Virus record (IMG/VR): IMGVR_UViG_3300022752_000023
Coordinates: 32,001 to 96,000 of that record
Length of the DNA stretch: 64,000 nucleotides
Reading direction: 5' to 3' (one strand)
From: a virus
In this document: positions 29,180 through 49,320 of the stretch, piece after piece
Layout of the letters: the number at the start of each line of letters is the position of its first letter
Numbering within the stretch: the stretch's first letter is position 1
The notes under the pieces: generated by a model
The model's database searches: none
The model's input: only the letters and a program-made list of their open reading frames with translations
Told to the model about the DNA's origin: nothing
Program-made: the position numbers and the translations under genes

Positions 29180-31473
29180 TTAGCCCTTTGCGGGTGCCGC
29201 GACGCGACGCGGACGTGACGACGTGACAGCCGGCTTACCGACACGCGTGTAAATACCGCGGTTGTCAGCCGACAGGCAGCGACCCTCAGCCCAGTTCCGC
29301 AGCCGCTCGATCTGCTCAGCCGACGTCACCGAAATCGGCACGACGTTCTGGGCAGCTTCAACGAGCGGAATGTCAAGCAGCGCTGCGAGCCTGCAGCACG
29401 ACTTGATCTCGGCGCCGGTCCAGTTGGTGTCGTCCGGCTTATCCTGTGCGGCGTCGACACCGAAATGCTTCAGGTAGATGTCCCAGATTGCCGCGCGCTG
29501 TTCGGCGCCCGGCAGATCTACAAAGAAAATACCGTCGAAACGCTCGGCGCGAGCAAACGGCGCCGGCAGCTGGCTGGCGTCGTTGCAGGTGCCGATAAAG
29601 AACACGTCCGACGTGTGGTCATTCAGCCACGTCAGGAGCGTACCAAACAGGCGCGCAGAAACGCCGCTGTCGGTCTGCCCGGATGAGCCTACGCCGGCGA
29701 GACCCTTTTCGATTTCCGTTGATGTTACGAATTAGCCGTTTCCGCTAATTCTCCTGTATTTTCATACAGGACCAGACTATGTCATCTTGTAGCGTCGCAC
29801 ATTGCATCGGTTGCACAAACCTTTCGATGCGTGCGGCGAAGTGGTTAGTCCGCAGGAAATGCATGCTTCGTATTGCGTGCTCCAACGGCCATTTTTTAAT
29901 AGTTTTGGTGTGGCGTATTTTGCTGTGCGTGCTGCCTGCAGTTCTGTTTTGTGTTCTAACAAATGACAGCGTCTACAGACAGTTTCAAGATTGTCTAAAG
30001 CGTTGTTAGGGTTTTTATTCCCTCGCCCTAGACGATCTTTGTGGTGCACGACAAGTTTTTTCTTTTTGCCGCAACGAGAACATTGTTGTTCGTCGCGTTT
30101 AATTACGGCTGTTCTTTCGCCGTTAAAATGTCGTTGTTCGCGGTAATTTTTTCGATACTGCAAACAATCGGCGTGGTTGTCGTAATACCATTGTTTTTTG
30201 GTGTTGGCTATGCGTTGACGATTTTTGTCGTCGTTGCGATAGCATTCCAAATAACAGATTTTGCACAGTCCTTTTGCCATATGCAGCCGTTCGGTCAGGC
30301 CGCACGATTGGCAACAGGAATATTTTTTTGACCACATCTCAAAACTCTACTACAAGGCCCCCATTTCGAACCCACTTGGGTCCTACGATCTTTCGATCTA
30401 GTCGTTGAACCTTCCAAGTATATTGCTACTTGGCTTGGCTGCAAGTTGCCCGGCTTACGCTGAGGGGTTTCTTGCAATTAAAGGGCTTTTCACTGATTTG
30501 TCGCCAAATCAGGGGACTGAACTCAATCCACAAACAACACGCACGGAGCCATTGCGTCAACCTGCTTGAGCGCGCGACGCATGTTACCCTCGGACTCGCC
30601 CACGAACTTGCCCATGAGCGAACCGAAATCCAGCATTACGGTCGGACGACCGACTTCGTTGCCAAGTGCTTTGGCAAACTGCGACTTGCCGCAGCCCGGA
30701 GGCGACAGCAAAAGAACGCCCTTGGGGCGCTTGTCTACGTTGGTTTCGCCTTGCCGCCGCATGGCGCGCAGGCAGAAACTCTTAAGGTTTTCGAGGCCGC
30801 CAAGATTCTCAAAGTTGGCGTCGCCACGATAGAGCGTCATCGTACCGCTCTTTTCAAGCGTCTGCGCCTTGATACCCCAGATCGTATCGGGCGACAGCTT
30901 GTTGTTGCGCACCAGCGACAGCGCGAACGCGTTCTCGGCCTCCTGCCGAGTCAGGCCGCGCGAGGCGTCAACCACCGCCGCGACTTCCTGCTCGGTCGGC
31001 TTGGCGAACGGGGAGCCGTCAGGGAACAGCTCGGTGCACACGGTCTTGAGCTGTTCCAGATCCGGCAGCTCGTGATGCACCACGGTAAACAACTTCTCTA
31101 CCTCGGGCTGCAGCTGCAGCACCGGCGCGACGATAATGATATGTTTACCCTCGCCCTTACCCTGCACGACGCGGTTTGCAAGTGCCTGCAGCACCTCCGG
31201 GTTGCCGAGAAACCGGTGAAAGTTCTTCAGCACAATAAGCATGGGCTGCTTGGGCTGCGGCTGATCAAGAAACCGCAACGCCTGTAGCGGGCCGGGAGCC
31301 TGCGCGTTCCCCGAATAAAGCTGGCGGTCGATGTCCCAGACATCGAATCCCCATTCCTTCTCTTCCGTTACACGACGAACCGACGCAATCGCGTCGTCGC
31401 ACTCCTGTGATTCAACCCAGATGCCGGAGAAGCCGGCGCATACCAGCTCCTTGATTTCTTTTTCGAGCGACAC
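29180..31473 (-). CDS. Ycf46-like AAA ATPase, spliced (exon 1 31473-30526, exon 2 29716-29180; about 494 aa)
   Basis: Exon 1 has Walker A SPPGCGKS and ends CVLFVD. Exon 2 begins EIEKGL and contains sensor 1 GTCN and the Arg finger RAERFD. Joining them restores Walker B LFVDEIEK in frame. Confidence 0.9.
29717..30525 (-). mobile_element. Group I intron (809 nt) with internal HNH ORF
   Basis: The 5' exon ends in U, and P1 forms GGAU/GUCC with a U.G pair. Core elements are P AATTGCAAGAAA, Q AACTTGCAGC, R GTTCAACGACTA and S AAGATGACATAGTCT. There are P9 hairpins and a terminal G before GAA ATC. Confidence 0.92.
29777..30337 (-). CDS. Intron-encoded HNH homing endonuclease with duplicated flanking zinc-finger modules
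   Basis: CSRCG...LVVHHKD...NNALDNLETVCRRCH. The pattern WSxxYxxCxxCGLTxxxHxxKGLCxxC occurs at both termini, and the stop codon lies within the S element. Confidence 0.9.
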   Translation of the reverse strand: MWSKKYSCCQSCGLTERLHMAKGLCKICYLECYRNDDKNRQRIANTKKQWYYDNHADCLQYRKNYREQRHFNGERTAVIKRDEQQCSRCGKKKKLVVHHKDRLGRGNKNPNNALDNLETVCRRCHLLEHKTELQAARTAKYATPKLLKNGRWSTQYEACISCGLTTSPHASKGLCNRCNVRRYKMT

Positions 31474-32765: not shown

Positions 32766-33644
32766 CTACGACATCATGGAGCGTAGCTGCTTGTGCTCCG
32801 CCAAGATTTCTCCGGCGGTGTCGTAGCAACCATCGCACGCCGCCAGAAACGCCGTGGCGGCCTTTAGCTGATCCATCGGCAGCGTCGCGGAGCCAGACGG
32901 CCCCTTGGCTACCGGGCGCTTCGGCGCAACCTTGGCGGGCTCCGTCTTCGCGTGCTTTCGGCGCGCCGCGTCGCGGCTACGCTCCTCGCCGGCTGCGACA
33001 GCAACCGCCGGGCCGCGCCTCCCAGAAGCAACGCCCGCTTTCTTCAACAGCTGGCTCACCTGCGCCGGGCTCACCGTCACGCGCTTCTTAGCAAGCGCCG
33101 CTACGATGTCCACGCCACGCAGCGAATCACCAGACTCTTGCCGACGTTCGATCTCCTCGCGGATGTGATCGGCGCCGCTCTTCTTCTCGGCCATGTCCTT
33201 CACCTTCCTTTTTGTGGTCCTCGTCGCCTTTGGCGATTCGACCGGGTCATCGTCTTCGTCGACCTCCACAGTGGAGTCGACAGTGTCGTCAGAAACCTCG
33301 TCGCCTTCTTCGGGCTCATATTCAGTTTCATCGTCGTCAGCATCCGCAATTTCGTCTTCGGGCAGTTTTGCTGCCGTCTCGCGGATGTCTTCACTACCTT
33401 CGTCTTCGTATTCGGTCTCTGCTTCAGCGTACGCATCGTCGTCATCAACCGAATCCTCTTCAAGCTCGGCGTCGACGTACGCGTCGACTTCCTCGTCGTC
33501 ATAGTCTTCTGGCGTTGCGAACCGCATCCGTGTGGTTCCTTTCTCCTTCTTCTTCTCTTTCTCTGCAGATGCCTTGCTGGTTGCGCCCGGCAGTGGTTTT
33601 CCCCACAGATTAGCCGGACTCACAAACTCTTCAGCCTTGGCCAT
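32766..33644 (-). CDS. Protein with a long acidic tract and a C-terminal planctomycete-type basic DNA-binding-like domain
   Basis: About 95 residues of D/E-rich sequence, then KSGADHIREE...DIVAALAKKRVTVSPAQVSQLLKK...QLKAATAF. Confidence 0.65.
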   Translation of the reverse strand: MAKAEEFVSPANLWGKPLPGATSKASAEKEKKKEKGTTRMRFATPEDYDDEEVDAYVDAELEEDSVDDDDAYAEAETEYEDEGSEDIRETAAKLPEDEIADADDDETEYEPEEGDEVSDDTVDSTVEVDEDDDPVESPKATRTTKRKVKDMAEKKSGADHIREEIERRQESGDSLRGVDIVAALAKKRVTVSPAQVSQLLKKAGVASGRRGPAVAVAAGEERSRDAARRKHAKTEPAKVAPKRPVAKGPSGSATLPMDQLKAATAFLAACDGCYDTAGEILAEHKQLRSMMS

Positions 33645-39497: not shown

Positions 39498-39950
39498 TTA
39501 TCTGCCGTCTGTTTCGCAGTAGATTACAAATGTACAACCGCACTGCTGCGCAAGCCTTACAACGTTTGGCGCGTACACAGAGACGATTTTTGTTTTGTCT
39601 ATTTTGTTATCAGCGATTAACGCTAGAAGACCCAGCTTTGCAATTCCGCGTCGCCGGTATTCAGGGTCAACAAAACATTCGACCGTTTGTACAACTGTCG
39701 GGCGACCTTTGAAATTTTCGGTCCACGGGCGCGTTCCAACCCAGCCTGCTAGCGTTTCGTCTACCCAGATGAGCGCGAGGGCCATTTCTGGGTGCGGCTG
39801 CTCGTGATTGACGTGCAGATAACGCTTAGCGAGTTCTTTTTGAATTGAGCTGTCGCTGCCAGAATCCGGCCACGACAATCTTGTCATGATCGCCGTCACA
39901 TCGACCAGCCCGAGGCGGTTGATATCTTTGATTTTGATCGAAATATCCAC
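39498..39950 (-). CDS. GNAT-family acetyltransferase
   Basis: Motif A CFVDPEYRRRGIAKL. Confidence 0.85.
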   Translation of the reverse strand: MDISIKIKDINRLGLVDVTAIMTRLSWPDSGSDSSIQKELAKRYLHVNHEQPHPEMALALIWVDETLAGWVGTRPWTENFKGRPTVVQTVECFVDPEYRRRGIAKLGLLALIADNKIDKTKIVSVYAPNVVRLAQQCGCTFVIYCETDGR

Positions 39951-39972
39951 AGCTGGTCCTCCGTGACCAACT
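39951..39972 (-). promoter_or_regulatory. CsrA/Rsm-type hairpin over the GNAT Shine-Dalgarno
   Basis: AGTTGGTC-ACGGAG-GACCAGCT immediately before the GTG start. Confidence 0.55.
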
Positions 39973-39988
39973 ATGGAGTATACATTAG

Positions 39989-40192
39989 CGCGGTAGGCGG
40001 GAGTCGAACCCGCTGCAGTAGATTTTCGGCCCGTCCGTCATTTCGGCAATTAAGTATGCGCACTTTTGCACACCGGAGATCAATCCGGCGGTAAATCACT
40101 CGCTCGCATACACCGGCTTCGTCCGCTCAGGTGATCAACCCATATCCGTCTACTGCATCAAGCGTTAAGCGCGCGCCCCGCGCATCTACCGC
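39989..40192 (-). ncRNA. tRNA-like (tmRNA-like topology) RNA of 204 nt
   Basis: Acceptor GCGGTAG/CTACCGC, T arm GCGGG-TTCGACT-CCCGC, and a 9-bp TGCAGTAGA/TCTACTGCA helix enclosing about 125 structured nt. It lies 4 nt downstream of tRNA-Thr. Confidence 0.7.
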
Positions 40193-40196
40193 AAAG

Positions 40197-40267
40197 AGCC
40201 CCCAGAAGGAATCAAACCCTCATCGGCTGATTACAAATCAGCTGCATTATCATTATGCTATGGGGGC
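40197..40267 (-). tRNA. tRNA-Thr(TGT)
   Basis: Acceptor GCCCCCA/TGGGGGC, D stem GCAT/ATGC, anticodon arm GCTGA-TTTGTAA-TCAGC and a variant T loop TTTGATT. Confidence 0.88.
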
Positions 40268-40690
40268 ATTTTTATTTGGCCATTTGAACTGTTTAGCTGT
40301 TTTTCGTCTGTGGCAATTTGCGCAGCGAACGACGCATTTTTTTATTTCGTGTGCTACGGCTTTTGCGCTGCAGTTTTTAAGTCGCGACACACTGTTTAGT
40401 TTTTGTCCGCGAACGTGGTCAAATTCTAGTACAACCGGATCGCTTTCACCGCAATCGACGCAGGGGTGTGTGCTTAAATATTCGCAGATAAACTCGTGCG
40501 CTTTGTTTCGTGCTGCTCGACGATTTAGTTTTATGTACTGCCGCCGGTGCGGGTGCTCGGCGTAATGCTCGCGATCGTACTTTTGTTTGCACGGCCGGCA
40601 CATACTTGCGCAACCCGTCTTTGTTGCCGCGCGTTTTTGAAATTCTGTATACGGTTTTGTTTTTTTACACCGCGTACATTTTTTTTGCAT
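40253..40690 (-). CDS. Free-standing HNH endonuclease overlapping the tRNA-Thr 5' end
   Basis: CTRC...CRPC; PCVDCG...LEFDHV...EIKKCVVRCANCHRRKT. Confidence 0.9.
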   Translation of the reverse strand: MQKKCTRCKKTKPYTEFQKRAATKTGCASMCRPCKQKYDREHYAEHPHRRQYIKLNRRAARNKAHEFICEYLSTHPCVDCGESDPVVLEFDHVRGQKLNSVSRLKNCSAKAVAHEIKKCVVRCANCHRRKTAKQFKWPNKNAPIA

Positions 40691-45921: not shown

Positions 45922-46212
45922 CTAACCCGCTTCGACAGTATTCGAGGTAGAGTTGCCAGTTGTCGTAAGAATCTCTGTCTTCGGCTCGTTCGTATGGGAT
46001 GTAGGGTGGCTCGTCTGGGACTCTGTCGTTCCAGCCCATTGCTTTTTGTCCTTCTTTTTAGTTCCGTCAATTAACTCGCCGCGCACTATCGTTGTTGTTT
46101 GCGGCGCAGTTAATCCAATCTTGACTCGATCGCCTGTGATTCCCAAAACTTTCACAACGATTCCGTCGCCAATTACAACTTCCTGTTCTTTCTTCCTTGA
46201 GAGTACAAGCAT
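45922..46212 (-). CDS. csrA: Carbon storage regulator CsrA/RsmA homolog
   Basis: MLVLSRKKEQEVVIGDGIVVKVLGITGDRVKIGLTAPQTTTIVRGEL, with the Arg44-equivalent conserved. Confidence 0.93.
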   Translation of the reverse strand: MLVLSRKKEQEVVIGDGIVVKVLGITGDRVKIGLTAPQTTTIVRGELIDGTKKKDKKQWAGTTESQTSHPTSHTNEPKTEILTTTGNSTSNTVEAG

Positions 46213-49030: not shown

Positions 49031-49320
49031 GCGTTAACTCCCTTGTAACGCTGTGAAGAAGAGCTGCTGATACGACACAGCAGCGACAATAAATATGCCG
49101 CGATTTTGGCAAAAATTTAGTCGCCGTTCGGAGTTTGCGAAAAGCGAAAGTGCCTGTCATTACAGGACTTACGGCGCGATTAGTCGTGTTCTGGAAAATG
49201 GAAAATGCAATCGCCGCCCCGCGCTGCCTAAGAGCATGAAGCCCGGAGGTTACGTGGCACGTAACCTTTCGGCAGACCGCAGGGCGGCGAAAGATCGCAG
49301 CCTACGCGTGGCAGGTGCGG

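What the first reader, a model, noticed from the sequence alone, without database searches (positions are those of the whole stretch)
39989..40192. 204-nt tRNA mimic with a large structured insert replacing the anticodon arm
It has a perfect 7-bp acceptor stem and a canonical T arm, no normal D arm, and a 9-bp helix opening into about 125 nt with its own stems (GTATGCG/CGCATAC, CCGGA/TCCGG). The topology is tmRNA-like, but it lacks the G3.U70 alanine determinant, is much shorter than tmRNA, and shows no convincing tag ORF. The insert is too short for a group I intron. It sits in a tRNA-Thr transcript, so RNase P and CCA-adding enzyme could mature it. Possible roles are a decoy for SmpB, RelA or tRNA-targeting defences, a CsrA sponge (four GGA, two as ACGGA), or an RNA for the Nop/RAMP-like proteins.
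Basis: partly seen in the sequence, partly recalled or inferred. Interest (0 to 1): 0.78.

Follow-up and report, generated by a model that had tools for sequence, protein, structure and literature searches.

The report
Phage tRNA-shaped RNA with large insert
A 204-base gene right behind a phage tRNA-Thr gene keeps the ends and elbow of a tRNA but holds a 144-base folded arm instead of an anticodon arm. It resembles the long-known, still unexplained tRNA-like stable RNAs of phages T5 and T4, and here it travels in a mobile HNH-endonuclease cassette.

Summary
Window 39989-40192 (minus strand) has a perfect 7-bp acceptor stem, a consensus T arm, a GC-rich D-like hairpin, an 11-nt linker and a 9(+3)-bp helix that closes about 116 nt of further hairpins. 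It starts 3-4 nt after tRNA-Thr(UGU).

ARAGORN and Rfam call neither a tRNA nor a tmRNA, and no other family matches.

Seven related phages lack it, and the indel ends coincide with the ends of the tRNA-like unit. One other phage (L259) carries HNH endonuclease + tRNA-Thr + this RNA at 96.5-100% identity while its flanking genes are only 81-85% identical. The three therefore move as one cassette. All five substitutions inside the RNA are compatible with the fold.

The closest known things are T5 RNA1/RNA2 and T4 species 1 RNA, tRNA-like stable RNAs of unknown function inside phage tRNA clusters. In IMG/VR I confirmed a large set of leucine-tRNA-framed RNAs with unrelated middles. Earlier reports of this scan described such RNAs on other DNA. 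This element fails that family's model because it lacks the Leu-type D arm. It does share its ends and a linker motif with two members.

The tmRNA, intron, Y RNA and CsrA-sponge readings are not supported. The function is unknown. It is a new member of a known kind.

The parts
40186..40192 (-). Acceptor stem, 5' strand (GCGGUAG)
   Evidence: Pairs 7 of 7 with 39990-39996. The indel relative to related phages starts here.
40169..40183 (-). D-like GC hairpin (GCGCG-GGGCG-CGCGC, or a 4-bp stem with a 7-nt GGGGCGC loop)
   Evidence: RNAfold. It is not the Leu-type D arm of the large phage family.
40158..40168 (-). Single-stranded linker UUAACGCUUGA
   Evidence: Shares UAAYGCUUGA with L096 and L101 at the same place. 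CUUGA after the D arm occurs in only 1 of 99 Leu-framed RNAs.
40014..40157 (-). 144-nt arm. A 9(+3)-bp closing helix encloses four hairpins, and two apical loops carry UUGAUC.
   Evidence: Folds. The C172U and C178U changes in L259 turn G-C pairs into G.U pairs. No look-alike was found elsewhere.
39997..40013 (-). T arm GCGGG-UUCGACU-CCCGC, joined to the long helix with no variable loop
   Evidence: Local match to the Rfam tmRNA model at this arm, 16.6 bits, and 14.6 bits with model R1. L259 has G188A, a purine-to-purine change at T-loop position 57.
39989..39996 (-). Acceptor stem, 3' strand (CUACCGC) plus discriminator G; no encoded CCA
   Evidence: The discriminator is A in L259.
40196..40267 (-). 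tRNA-Thr(UGU), cassette allele
   Evidence: ARAGORN and Rfam, 64.9 bits. It is 100% identical in L259 and differs from the allele in seven related phages.
40253..40690 (-). HNH endonuclease gene, the likely driver of the cassette
   Evidence: phrog_2255, E = 1.4e-33. Absent from L002-L008. 96.5% nt identity to L259, against 81-85% for the flanking genes.
39498..39950 (-). GNAT acetyltransferase gene, the downstream flank outside the cassette
   Evidence: Pfam PF00583, E = 7.7e-08. It follows tRNA-Thr by about 36 nt in seven related phages.

Best explanation
It is a gene for a tRNA-framed, non-decoding RNA of the same kind as phage T5 RNA1/RNA2 and T4 species 1 RNA.

Inferred mechanism:
- It is transcribed together with tRNA-Thr.
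- RNase P cuts at G1, and the 3' end is trimmed and given CCA. Like the phage's three tRNAs, it encodes no CCA.
- The acceptor/T-arm stack and the D-like hairpin act as a processing and stability frame.
- The 144-nt arm is the working part. It most likely binds a protein or forms a compact domain, perhaps through a kissing contact between its two GAUC loops.
- It cannot read codons.

Shown:
- The anatomy.
- The position 3-4 nt behind tRNA-Thr.
- The presence/absence polymorphism, whose ends coincide with the ends of the unit.
- Carriage within a recently exchanged HNH + tRNA-Thr + RNA cassette.

Not shown: expression, processing, and what the arm does.
For: - Intact frame and five perfect helices.
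- The indel ends coincide with the ends of the unit in 7 of 7 related phages.
- L259 carries HNH, tRNA-Thr and W at 96.5%, 100% and 97.5% nt identity, while the flanking Pyr_excise and GNAT genes are 85% and 81% identical.
- All five changes in W fit the fold: one unpaired base, two G-C to G.U changes, one purine swap at T-loop position 57, and the discriminator.
- GenBank annotates T5 RNA1 and RNA2 as 'tRNA-like stable RNA with unknown functions' inside the tRNA cluster. They fold as acceptor, D hairpin, long arm with insert, then T arm.
- T4 rnaC is similar, and its role is unknown (PMC3014915).
- IMG/VR holds at least 99 Leu-framed RNAs with 72 unrelated middles. ARAGORN calls none of them.
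- W shares its acceptor stem, T arm and the linker UAAYGCUUGA with L096 and L101, which score 59-61 bits on that family's model.
- No sigma-70-like promoter and no minus-strand terminator lies between the HNH gene and GNAT.
- RNase P accepts acceptor/T-arm minihelices (established knowledge).
Against:
- Only one near-identical homologue exists, so there is no real covariation.
- W changes at about the same rate as the HNH gene, 97.5% against 96.5% identity, so no extra constraint is visible.
- Fold z-scores are ordinary.
- Phages with the same HNH and tRNA-Thr allele do without it (L260, L261, L267).
- It fails the Leu-frame model apart from the T arm.
- U8 is replaced by A8.
Confidence: 0.55

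Rival explanations
1. It is functionless hitch-hiking DNA: a tRNA-derived unit, or a chimera of tRNA pieces with an insertion, carried along by the HNH cassette. It may be transcribed and even processed, but it is not selected for any role.
For: - Absent from seven related phages and from phages with the same HNH and tRNA-Thr allele.
- The slot behind tRNA-Thr is a dumping ground. It holds a 3' remnant of the old tRNA-Thr in L260 and a small Cys/His ORF in L269-L271.
- W diverges at the same rate as the HNH gene.
- Fold z-scores are ordinary.
- No family was found for the insert.
Against: - Both acceptor strands, the T arm and five helices show no mismatch at all.
- Five of five substitutions in L259 are fold-compatible.
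- Similar RNAs are kept in T5, T4 and many uncultured phages.
Confidence: 0.27
2. It is an intron-containing tRNA. Removing about 127 nt would leave a decoding tRNA.
For: With its threshold lowered to 80%, ARAGORN offers tRNA-Pro(UGG) with a 127-nt intron in the anticodon loop. The phage does have a group I intron elsewhere, at 29753-30535.
Against: - ARAGORN makes no call at the default threshold, even with introns allowed.
- The proposed anticodon stem has 3 of 5 pairs and competes with a perfect 9-bp helix.
- There is no group I or other ribozyme match at E <= 10.
- 127 nt is below the size of known group I introns (my own knowledge).
- Bacteria have no protein-based tRNA splicing (established knowledge).
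Confidence: 0.05
3. It is a reduced tmRNA-like RNA, acting in trans-translation or as a decoy for SmpB.
For: The topology resembles a tmRNA tRNA-like domain: acceptor stem, long helix, then T arm. The T arm equals the tmRNA consensus. A related phage encodes a true tmRNA (L072, tag GTFNSVPALAA).
Against: - G3-C70 instead of G3.U70.
- ARAGORN's tmRNA search is negative even at a lowered threshold.
- Rfam tmRNA gives 16.6 bits against a gathering score of 47.
- There is no similarity to the related phage's tmRNA outside the T arm.
- No frame ends in a tag-like peptide (read from the sequence).
- No SmpB gene in the 144 kb held.
Confidence: 0.03
4. It is a protein sponge of a named kind: a CsrA sponge or a Ro60-bound Y RNA.
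For: First-stage notes place a csrA gene at 45922-46212 (not checked here). W contains four GGA.
Against: - Four GGA is the number expected from the base composition.
- All four lie in or beside stems, not in hairpin loops.
- No TROVE/Ro60 gene in the genome.
- No YrlA match at W.
Confidence: 0.03

Closest known systems
Phage T5 RNA1 and RNA2 (AY543070 misc_RNA 30501-30644 and 32959-33083, 'tRNA-like stable RNA with unknown functions')
   Same: They lie inside the tRNA cluster on the tRNA strand, with HNH endonuclease genes close by. Each has a 7-bp acceptor stem, a D hairpin, a long arm with an insert in place of the anticodon arm, and a canonical T arm. RNA2, like W, matches the Leu-frame model only at its T arm.
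   Different: T5 RNA1 keeps a Leu-type D arm and a long variable arm and scores 47.8 bits on model R1. W is longer, 204 nt against 125-144 nt. W has a GC-only D hairpin, an 11-nt linker and no variable region. There is no sequence similarity outside the frame.
Phage T4 species 1 RNA (rnaC, AF158101 70908-71046)
   Same: It is a stable small RNA at the end of the tRNA cluster, with a T arm and paired ends around long inserted helices. Its role is unknown (PMC3014915).
   Different: It is 139 nt with different interior helices and a less regular acceptor stem. It gives only a partial 23-bit match to model R1.
Leucine-tRNA-framed RNAs of uncultured phages (model R1, built here from 72 IMG/VR sequences)
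   Same: They combine a tRNA frame with an unrelated, exchangeable middle, and ARAGORN does not call them. The members L096 and L101 share W's acceptor stem, T arm and linker UAAYGCUUGA.
   Different: W lacks the invariant UGGCGGAAUUGGUAGACGC D arm. Its discriminator is G (A in L259), whereas the family mostly has A. Only its T arm scores on R1.
tmRNA tRNA-like domain
   Same: The order is acceptor stem, long helix in place of the anticodon arm, then T arm.
   Different: W has no G3.U70, no tag frame, no pseudoknots that I could see, and a hairpin in the D region.

Membership tests
tmRNA | G3.U70 alanine determinant in the acceptor stem | tested here: not met
   The pair is G3-C70.
tmRNA | Tag reading frame with resume codon; recognised by tmRNA models | tested here: not met
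   ARAGORN makes no tmRNA call at the default or at a lowered threshold. Rfam RF00023 matches only the T arm, 16.6 bits against a gathering score of 47.
Canonical or intron-containing tRNA | Cloverleaf with a 5-bp anticodon stem and a 7-nt loop, before or after removal of an intron | tested here: not met
   Rfam tRNA gives no match. ARAGORN is negative at the default threshold with introns allowed. At the 80% threshold it proposes a 3-of-5-bp anticodon stem with a 127-nt intron.
Group I intron in a tRNA gene | Conserved catalytic core (P3-P8, P7) | tested here: not met
   No Intron_gpI match at E <= 10 in 39800-40400. The same search finds the window's true group I intron at 29753-30535.
Leu-tRNA-framed phage RNAs (model R1) | Leu-type D arm UGGCGGAAUUGGUAGACGC | tested here: not met
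   W has AUGCGCGGGGCGCGCGC there. These columns are invariant in 72 of 72 seed sequences.
Leu-tRNA-framed phage RNAs (model R1) | Full-length match to the covariance model | tested here: not met
   Only the T arm matches, at 14.6 bits, with filters on or off. The 155-nt middle may exceed what the model can span, so this is a weak negative.
Leu-tRNA-framed phage RNAs (model R1) | 7-bp acceptor stem and T arm enclosing a middle that has no anticodon arm | tested here: met
   W also shares its ends and linker with the members L096 and L101.
tRNA-like stable RNAs of phage tRNA clusters (T5 RNA1/RNA2, T4 rnaC) | Gene abuts tRNA genes on the same strand | tested here: met
   It starts 3-4 nt after tRNA-Thr(UGU) on the minus strand.
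tRNA-like stable RNAs of phage tRNA clusters (T5 RNA1/RNA2, T4 rnaC) | tRNA-like ends and T arm with a structured insert in the middle | tested here: met
   Compare the fold with those.
tRNA-like stable RNAs of phage tRNA clusters (T5 RNA1/RNA2, T4 rnaC) | Accumulates as a stable, processed RNA in infected cells | not testable with these tools
YrlA / bacterial Y RNA | Ro60 (TROVE) partner gene and a match to the YrlA model | tested here: not met
   No PF05731 match in the 144 kb held. No RF02553 match at W.
CsrA-sequestering RNA | Many GGA motifs displayed in hairpin loops | tested here: not met
   Four GGA in 204 nt is about the number expected from composition. All four lie in or next to stems of the predicted fold.

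The most novel reading that the evidence does not exclude
The frame is not just a handle. The long helix abuts the T arm like the variable arm of a class II tRNA, and the linker keeps the CUUGA of a tRNA-Ser(UGA) anticodon loop. The RNA might therefore be recognised, and perhaps charged, by a synthetase that ignores the anticodon, such as SerRS. Alternatively it might act as bait for a host tRNA-cleaving defence nuclease. Either way the phage would gain an anticodon-less aminoacyl-RNA or a decoy that the HNH cassette spreads among phages.
Probability: 0.08. Interest if true: 0.8.

Novelty: new member of a known kind. Interest (0 to 1): 0.36.

Why it matters
T4 and T5 have carried tRNA-like stable RNAs of unknown role for about fifty years. 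My scan shows that uncultured phages hold many more, and standard annotation tools do not call them.

This element adds three things:
- It is an unusually large example with a non-leucine frame.
- Its gain and loss can be read base by base against related phages.
- It gives direct evidence that such an RNA can be cargo of a homing-endonuclease cassette at a tRNA locus.

It does not reveal what these RNAs do.

Tried and rejected
- Similarity to isolated phages: blastn of the region against 50,697 phage records gave no match.
- Other carriers of the 3' half: IMG/VR has one (L009, an odd unit inside a 26-tRNA array). GTDB genomes have none. Metagenome contigs gave 29 hits, mostly ordinary tRNA-His, Gly and Leu.
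- A degenerate 3'-half scan found only ordinary tRNAs and att-like tRNA fragments.
- The motif ACGGAUAUG..CUGAGC..GGAC, shared with L009, hit only coding sequences elsewhere, so homology with L009 stays unproven.
- Scans for the 5' motif and for the two UUGAUC hairpins found nothing relevant.
- A scan for GCTTGA plus the T arm gave mostly tmRNA 3' ends and tRNAs, plus two further tRNA-framed RNAs (L247, L258).
- The related phages have no copy elsewhere in their genomes and no Leu-framed RNAs.
- The weak match to their tRNA(UAG) covers only an anticodon-stem-like stretch and the T arm and is at chance level (E about 0.2).
- Antisense targets in the phage genome are at chance level.
- GATC is not avoided in the genome, so the two GATC loops say nothing about origin.
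- Homologues of the HNH gene led to one more carrier (L259) and to several phages with an empty or differently filled slot.

Full report
**What is there**

On the minus strand, window 40192 to 39989 encodes a 204-nt unit that I call W. W position p corresponds to window coordinate 40193 - p. The sequence and RNAfold show these parts:
- a perfect 7-bp acceptor stem (1-7 with 197-203);
- two junction bases, A8 and U9;
- a GC hairpin where a D arm would be (10-24);
- an 11-nt linker, UUAACGCUUGA (25-35);
- a perfect 9-bp helix (36-44 with 171-179), extended by 3 bp after an AAAA bulge;
- a consensus T arm (180-196) joined to the helix with no variable loop;
- discriminator G and no encoded CCA.

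tRNA-Thr(UGU) ends 3-4 nt upstream on the same strand. The one correction is that a D-like hairpin is present.

**What it is not**

- ARAGORN calls neither a tRNA nor a tmRNA here.
- Rfam at gathering scores finds nothing. At E <= 10 it finds only the T arm, as a 16.6-bit local match to the tmRNA model.
- With introns allowed ARAGORN still makes no call. Only at an 80% threshold does it offer tRNA-Pro(UGG) with a 127-nt intron. That solution has an anticodon stem of 3 of 5 pairs, which competes with the perfect 9-bp helix.
- The tmRNA search is negative even at the lowered threshold.
- The pair at positions 3 and 70 is G-C.
- The 144-kb virus record holds no tmRNA, SmpB or Ro60 gene.
- Four GGA in 204 nt is about what the composition predicts. 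None sits in a hairpin loop of the fold, so the CsrA-sponge idea has no support.
- No stretch of the phage genome is complementary to W beyond chance.

**Presence and absence**

The window belongs to an IMG/VR record that is 71% complete. Its large terminase is less than 31% identical to that of any isolated phage.

Seven related contigs have GNAT proteins 64-84% identical to the window's. In them, tRNA-Thr is followed by the GNAT gene after about 36 nt. The extra 207 nt or so in the window begin exactly at G1 of W and end a few bases after the acceptor stem. W is therefore a discrete unit that was gained or lost as a whole.

**The cassette**

The gene upstream of tRNA-Thr is an HNH endonuclease (phrog_2255, E = 1.4e-33). 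The related phages L002-L008 lack it. In L003, L004, L005 and L007 the Pyr_excise gene runs straight into a different tRNA-Thr allele.

Homologues of the HNH protein led to L259, a contig from another sample. Nucleotide identities between L259 and the window are:

| Segment | Identity |
|---|---|
| HNH gene | 96.5% |
| tRNA-Thr | 100% |
| W | 97.5% |
| Pyr_excise (flank) | 85% |
| GNAT (flank) | 81% |

The block HNH + tRNA-Thr + W has thus been exchanged recently between phages that are otherwise well diverged. That is the signature of a homing-endonuclease cassette with co-converted cargo.

L260 has the HNH gene and the new tRNA-Thr allele, followed by the 3' third of the old allele and no W. 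The cassette therefore landed inside the old tRNA-Thr gene. The slot behind the new tRNA is variable:
- empty in L261 and L267;
- the old tRNA-Thr remnant in L260;
- W in the window and in L259;
- a small Cys/His-rich ORF in L269-L271.

The five differences between the two copies of W are:
- U51C, in an unpaired stretch;
- C172U and C178U, each turning a G-C pair of the long helix into G.U;
- G188A, purine for purine at T-loop position 57;
- G204A, the discriminator.

None of them breaks a pair. This is mild support for a maintained fold. It is no more than that, because the HNH gene has diverged just as little.

**Comparison with what is known**

Earlier AI notes of this scan pointed to T5 RNA1/RNA2 and T4 rnaC, and to a large family of leucine-tRNA-framed phage RNAs. 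I checked each lead myself.

- The T5 record annotates RNA1 and RNA2 as 'tRNA-like stable RNA with unknown functions'. They lie among tRNA genes and HNH genes. They fold as acceptor stem, D hairpin, long arm with insert, then T arm.
- T4 rnaC lies at the end of the T4 tRNA cluster and has a T arm and paired ends. A review states that the roles of RNAC and RNAD are unknown (PMC3014915).
- A pattern scan of IMG/VR asked for a Leu-type D arm followed 60-90 nt later by a T loop. Of these, 99 have good frames, with 72 unrelated middles, and ARAGORN calls none of them.
- I built a covariance model of that frame, R1. Its scores are:

| Sequence | Score on R1 |
|---|---|
| Metagenome units L101 and L096 | 61.3 and 59.4 bits |
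| T5 RNA1 | 47.8 bits |
| True tRNA-Leu genes | 31-43 bits |
| W | 14.6 bits (T arm only) |
| T5 RNA2 | 16 bits (T arm only) |

 W lacks the invariant Leu D arm, so I do not file it in that family.

W is nevertheless linked to L096 and L101. They share an identical acceptor stem, an identical 24-nt 3' half, D hairpins of equal length, and the linker UAAYGCUUGA just before a long helix that abuts the T arm. CUUGA in that place occurs in only 1 of 99 Leu frames. Two further tRNA-framed RNAs with W's T arm turned up by chance, L247 and L258.

W is best described as a new, unusually large member of the broad known kind 'tRNA-like stable RNA of a phage tRNA locus'. It has a divergent frame.

**How it probably works**

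All of this is inferred. No sigma-70-like promoter and no minus-strand terminator separates the HNH gene, tRNA-Thr, W and GNAT, so W should be on the tRNA-Thr transcript. An acceptor/T-arm stack is enough for RNase P (established knowledge). The lack of an encoded CCA matches the phage's three tRNAs, which points to CCA addition by the host.

The frame would then give defined ends and stability, and the 144-nt arm would be the working part. Its two apical loops both read UUGAUC. Since GAUC is self-complementary, the loops could kiss each other or pair with another molecule. This is untested.

Nothing identifies a partner, so the function is unknown. I put 0.55 on 'a processed, selected tRNA-framed RNA' and 0.27 on 'intact but functionless cassette passenger'. 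The intron, tmRNA and named-sponge readings share the small remainder.

**Limits**

- Only one near-identical homologue is known.
- Fold z-scores are ordinary.
- The host is unknown.
- The model test is weakened by W's long middle.

Noticed in passing
L260:1686-1875: After the HNH gene and the new tRNA-Thr allele lies the 3' third (T arm and acceptor strand) of the old tRNA-Thr allele seen in related phages. The HNH + tRNA cassette therefore inserted into the old tRNA gene and replaced its function.
   Followed up: partly
L269:1939-2247 (also L270, L271): The slot that W occupies holds instead a different sequence of about 300 nt with a small Cys/His-rich open frame, behind the same tRNA-Thr allele.
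   Followed up: no
L111-L222 (IMG/VR): At least 99 RNAs have a leucine-tRNA acceptor stem, D arm and T arm but 72 unrelated middles of 60-90 nt. ARAGORN calls none of them. AGUCAGG is the commonest acceptor strand (37 of 99).
   Followed up: partly
L087:3215-3312, L102:2508-2611: These are class II-like tRNAs with Leu-type bodies, proline anticodons (UGG, GGG) and variable arms of about 28-35 nt. ARAGORN's default settings miss them. In L087 the sequence just upstream ends in a T arm and ...UCCACCA and looks like the 3' end of a tmRNA, though ARAGORN calls none there.
   Followed up: no
L009:2420-2575: An unclassified unit of about 156 nt sits between tRNA-Met and tRNA-Ile in a 26-tRNA array. 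Its T arm and 3' acceptor strand are identical to W's, but only 5 acceptor pairs form. It may be a decayed class II tRNA.
   Followed up: partly
L072:929-1269: A related phage (about 205 kb) encodes a full tmRNA with tag GTFNSVPALAA next to its tRNA genes. The window's record has none in the part held.
   Followed up: no
window 29753-30535 (-): A group I intron (Rfam, 67 bits) with a long insertion in a peripheral loop.
   Followed up: no
window 49213-49288 (-): A match to the DUF3800-VIII RNA motif (44.8 bits; gathering score 40.2).
   Followed up: no
window 39972-39984 (-) and L002-L008 about 2968-2985: The motif GUAUACUCCAU(G/A) is conserved just upstream of the GNAT ribosome-binding site in related phages. 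It marks the right edge of the variable slot and could be a phage promoter or a processing signal.
   Followed up: no
L247:10157-10277 (-), L258:538-682 (-): Two more tRNA-framed RNAs (121 and 145 nt) have 7-bp acceptor stems, W's exact T arm and no anticodon arm. ARAGORN calls neither.
   Followed up: partly
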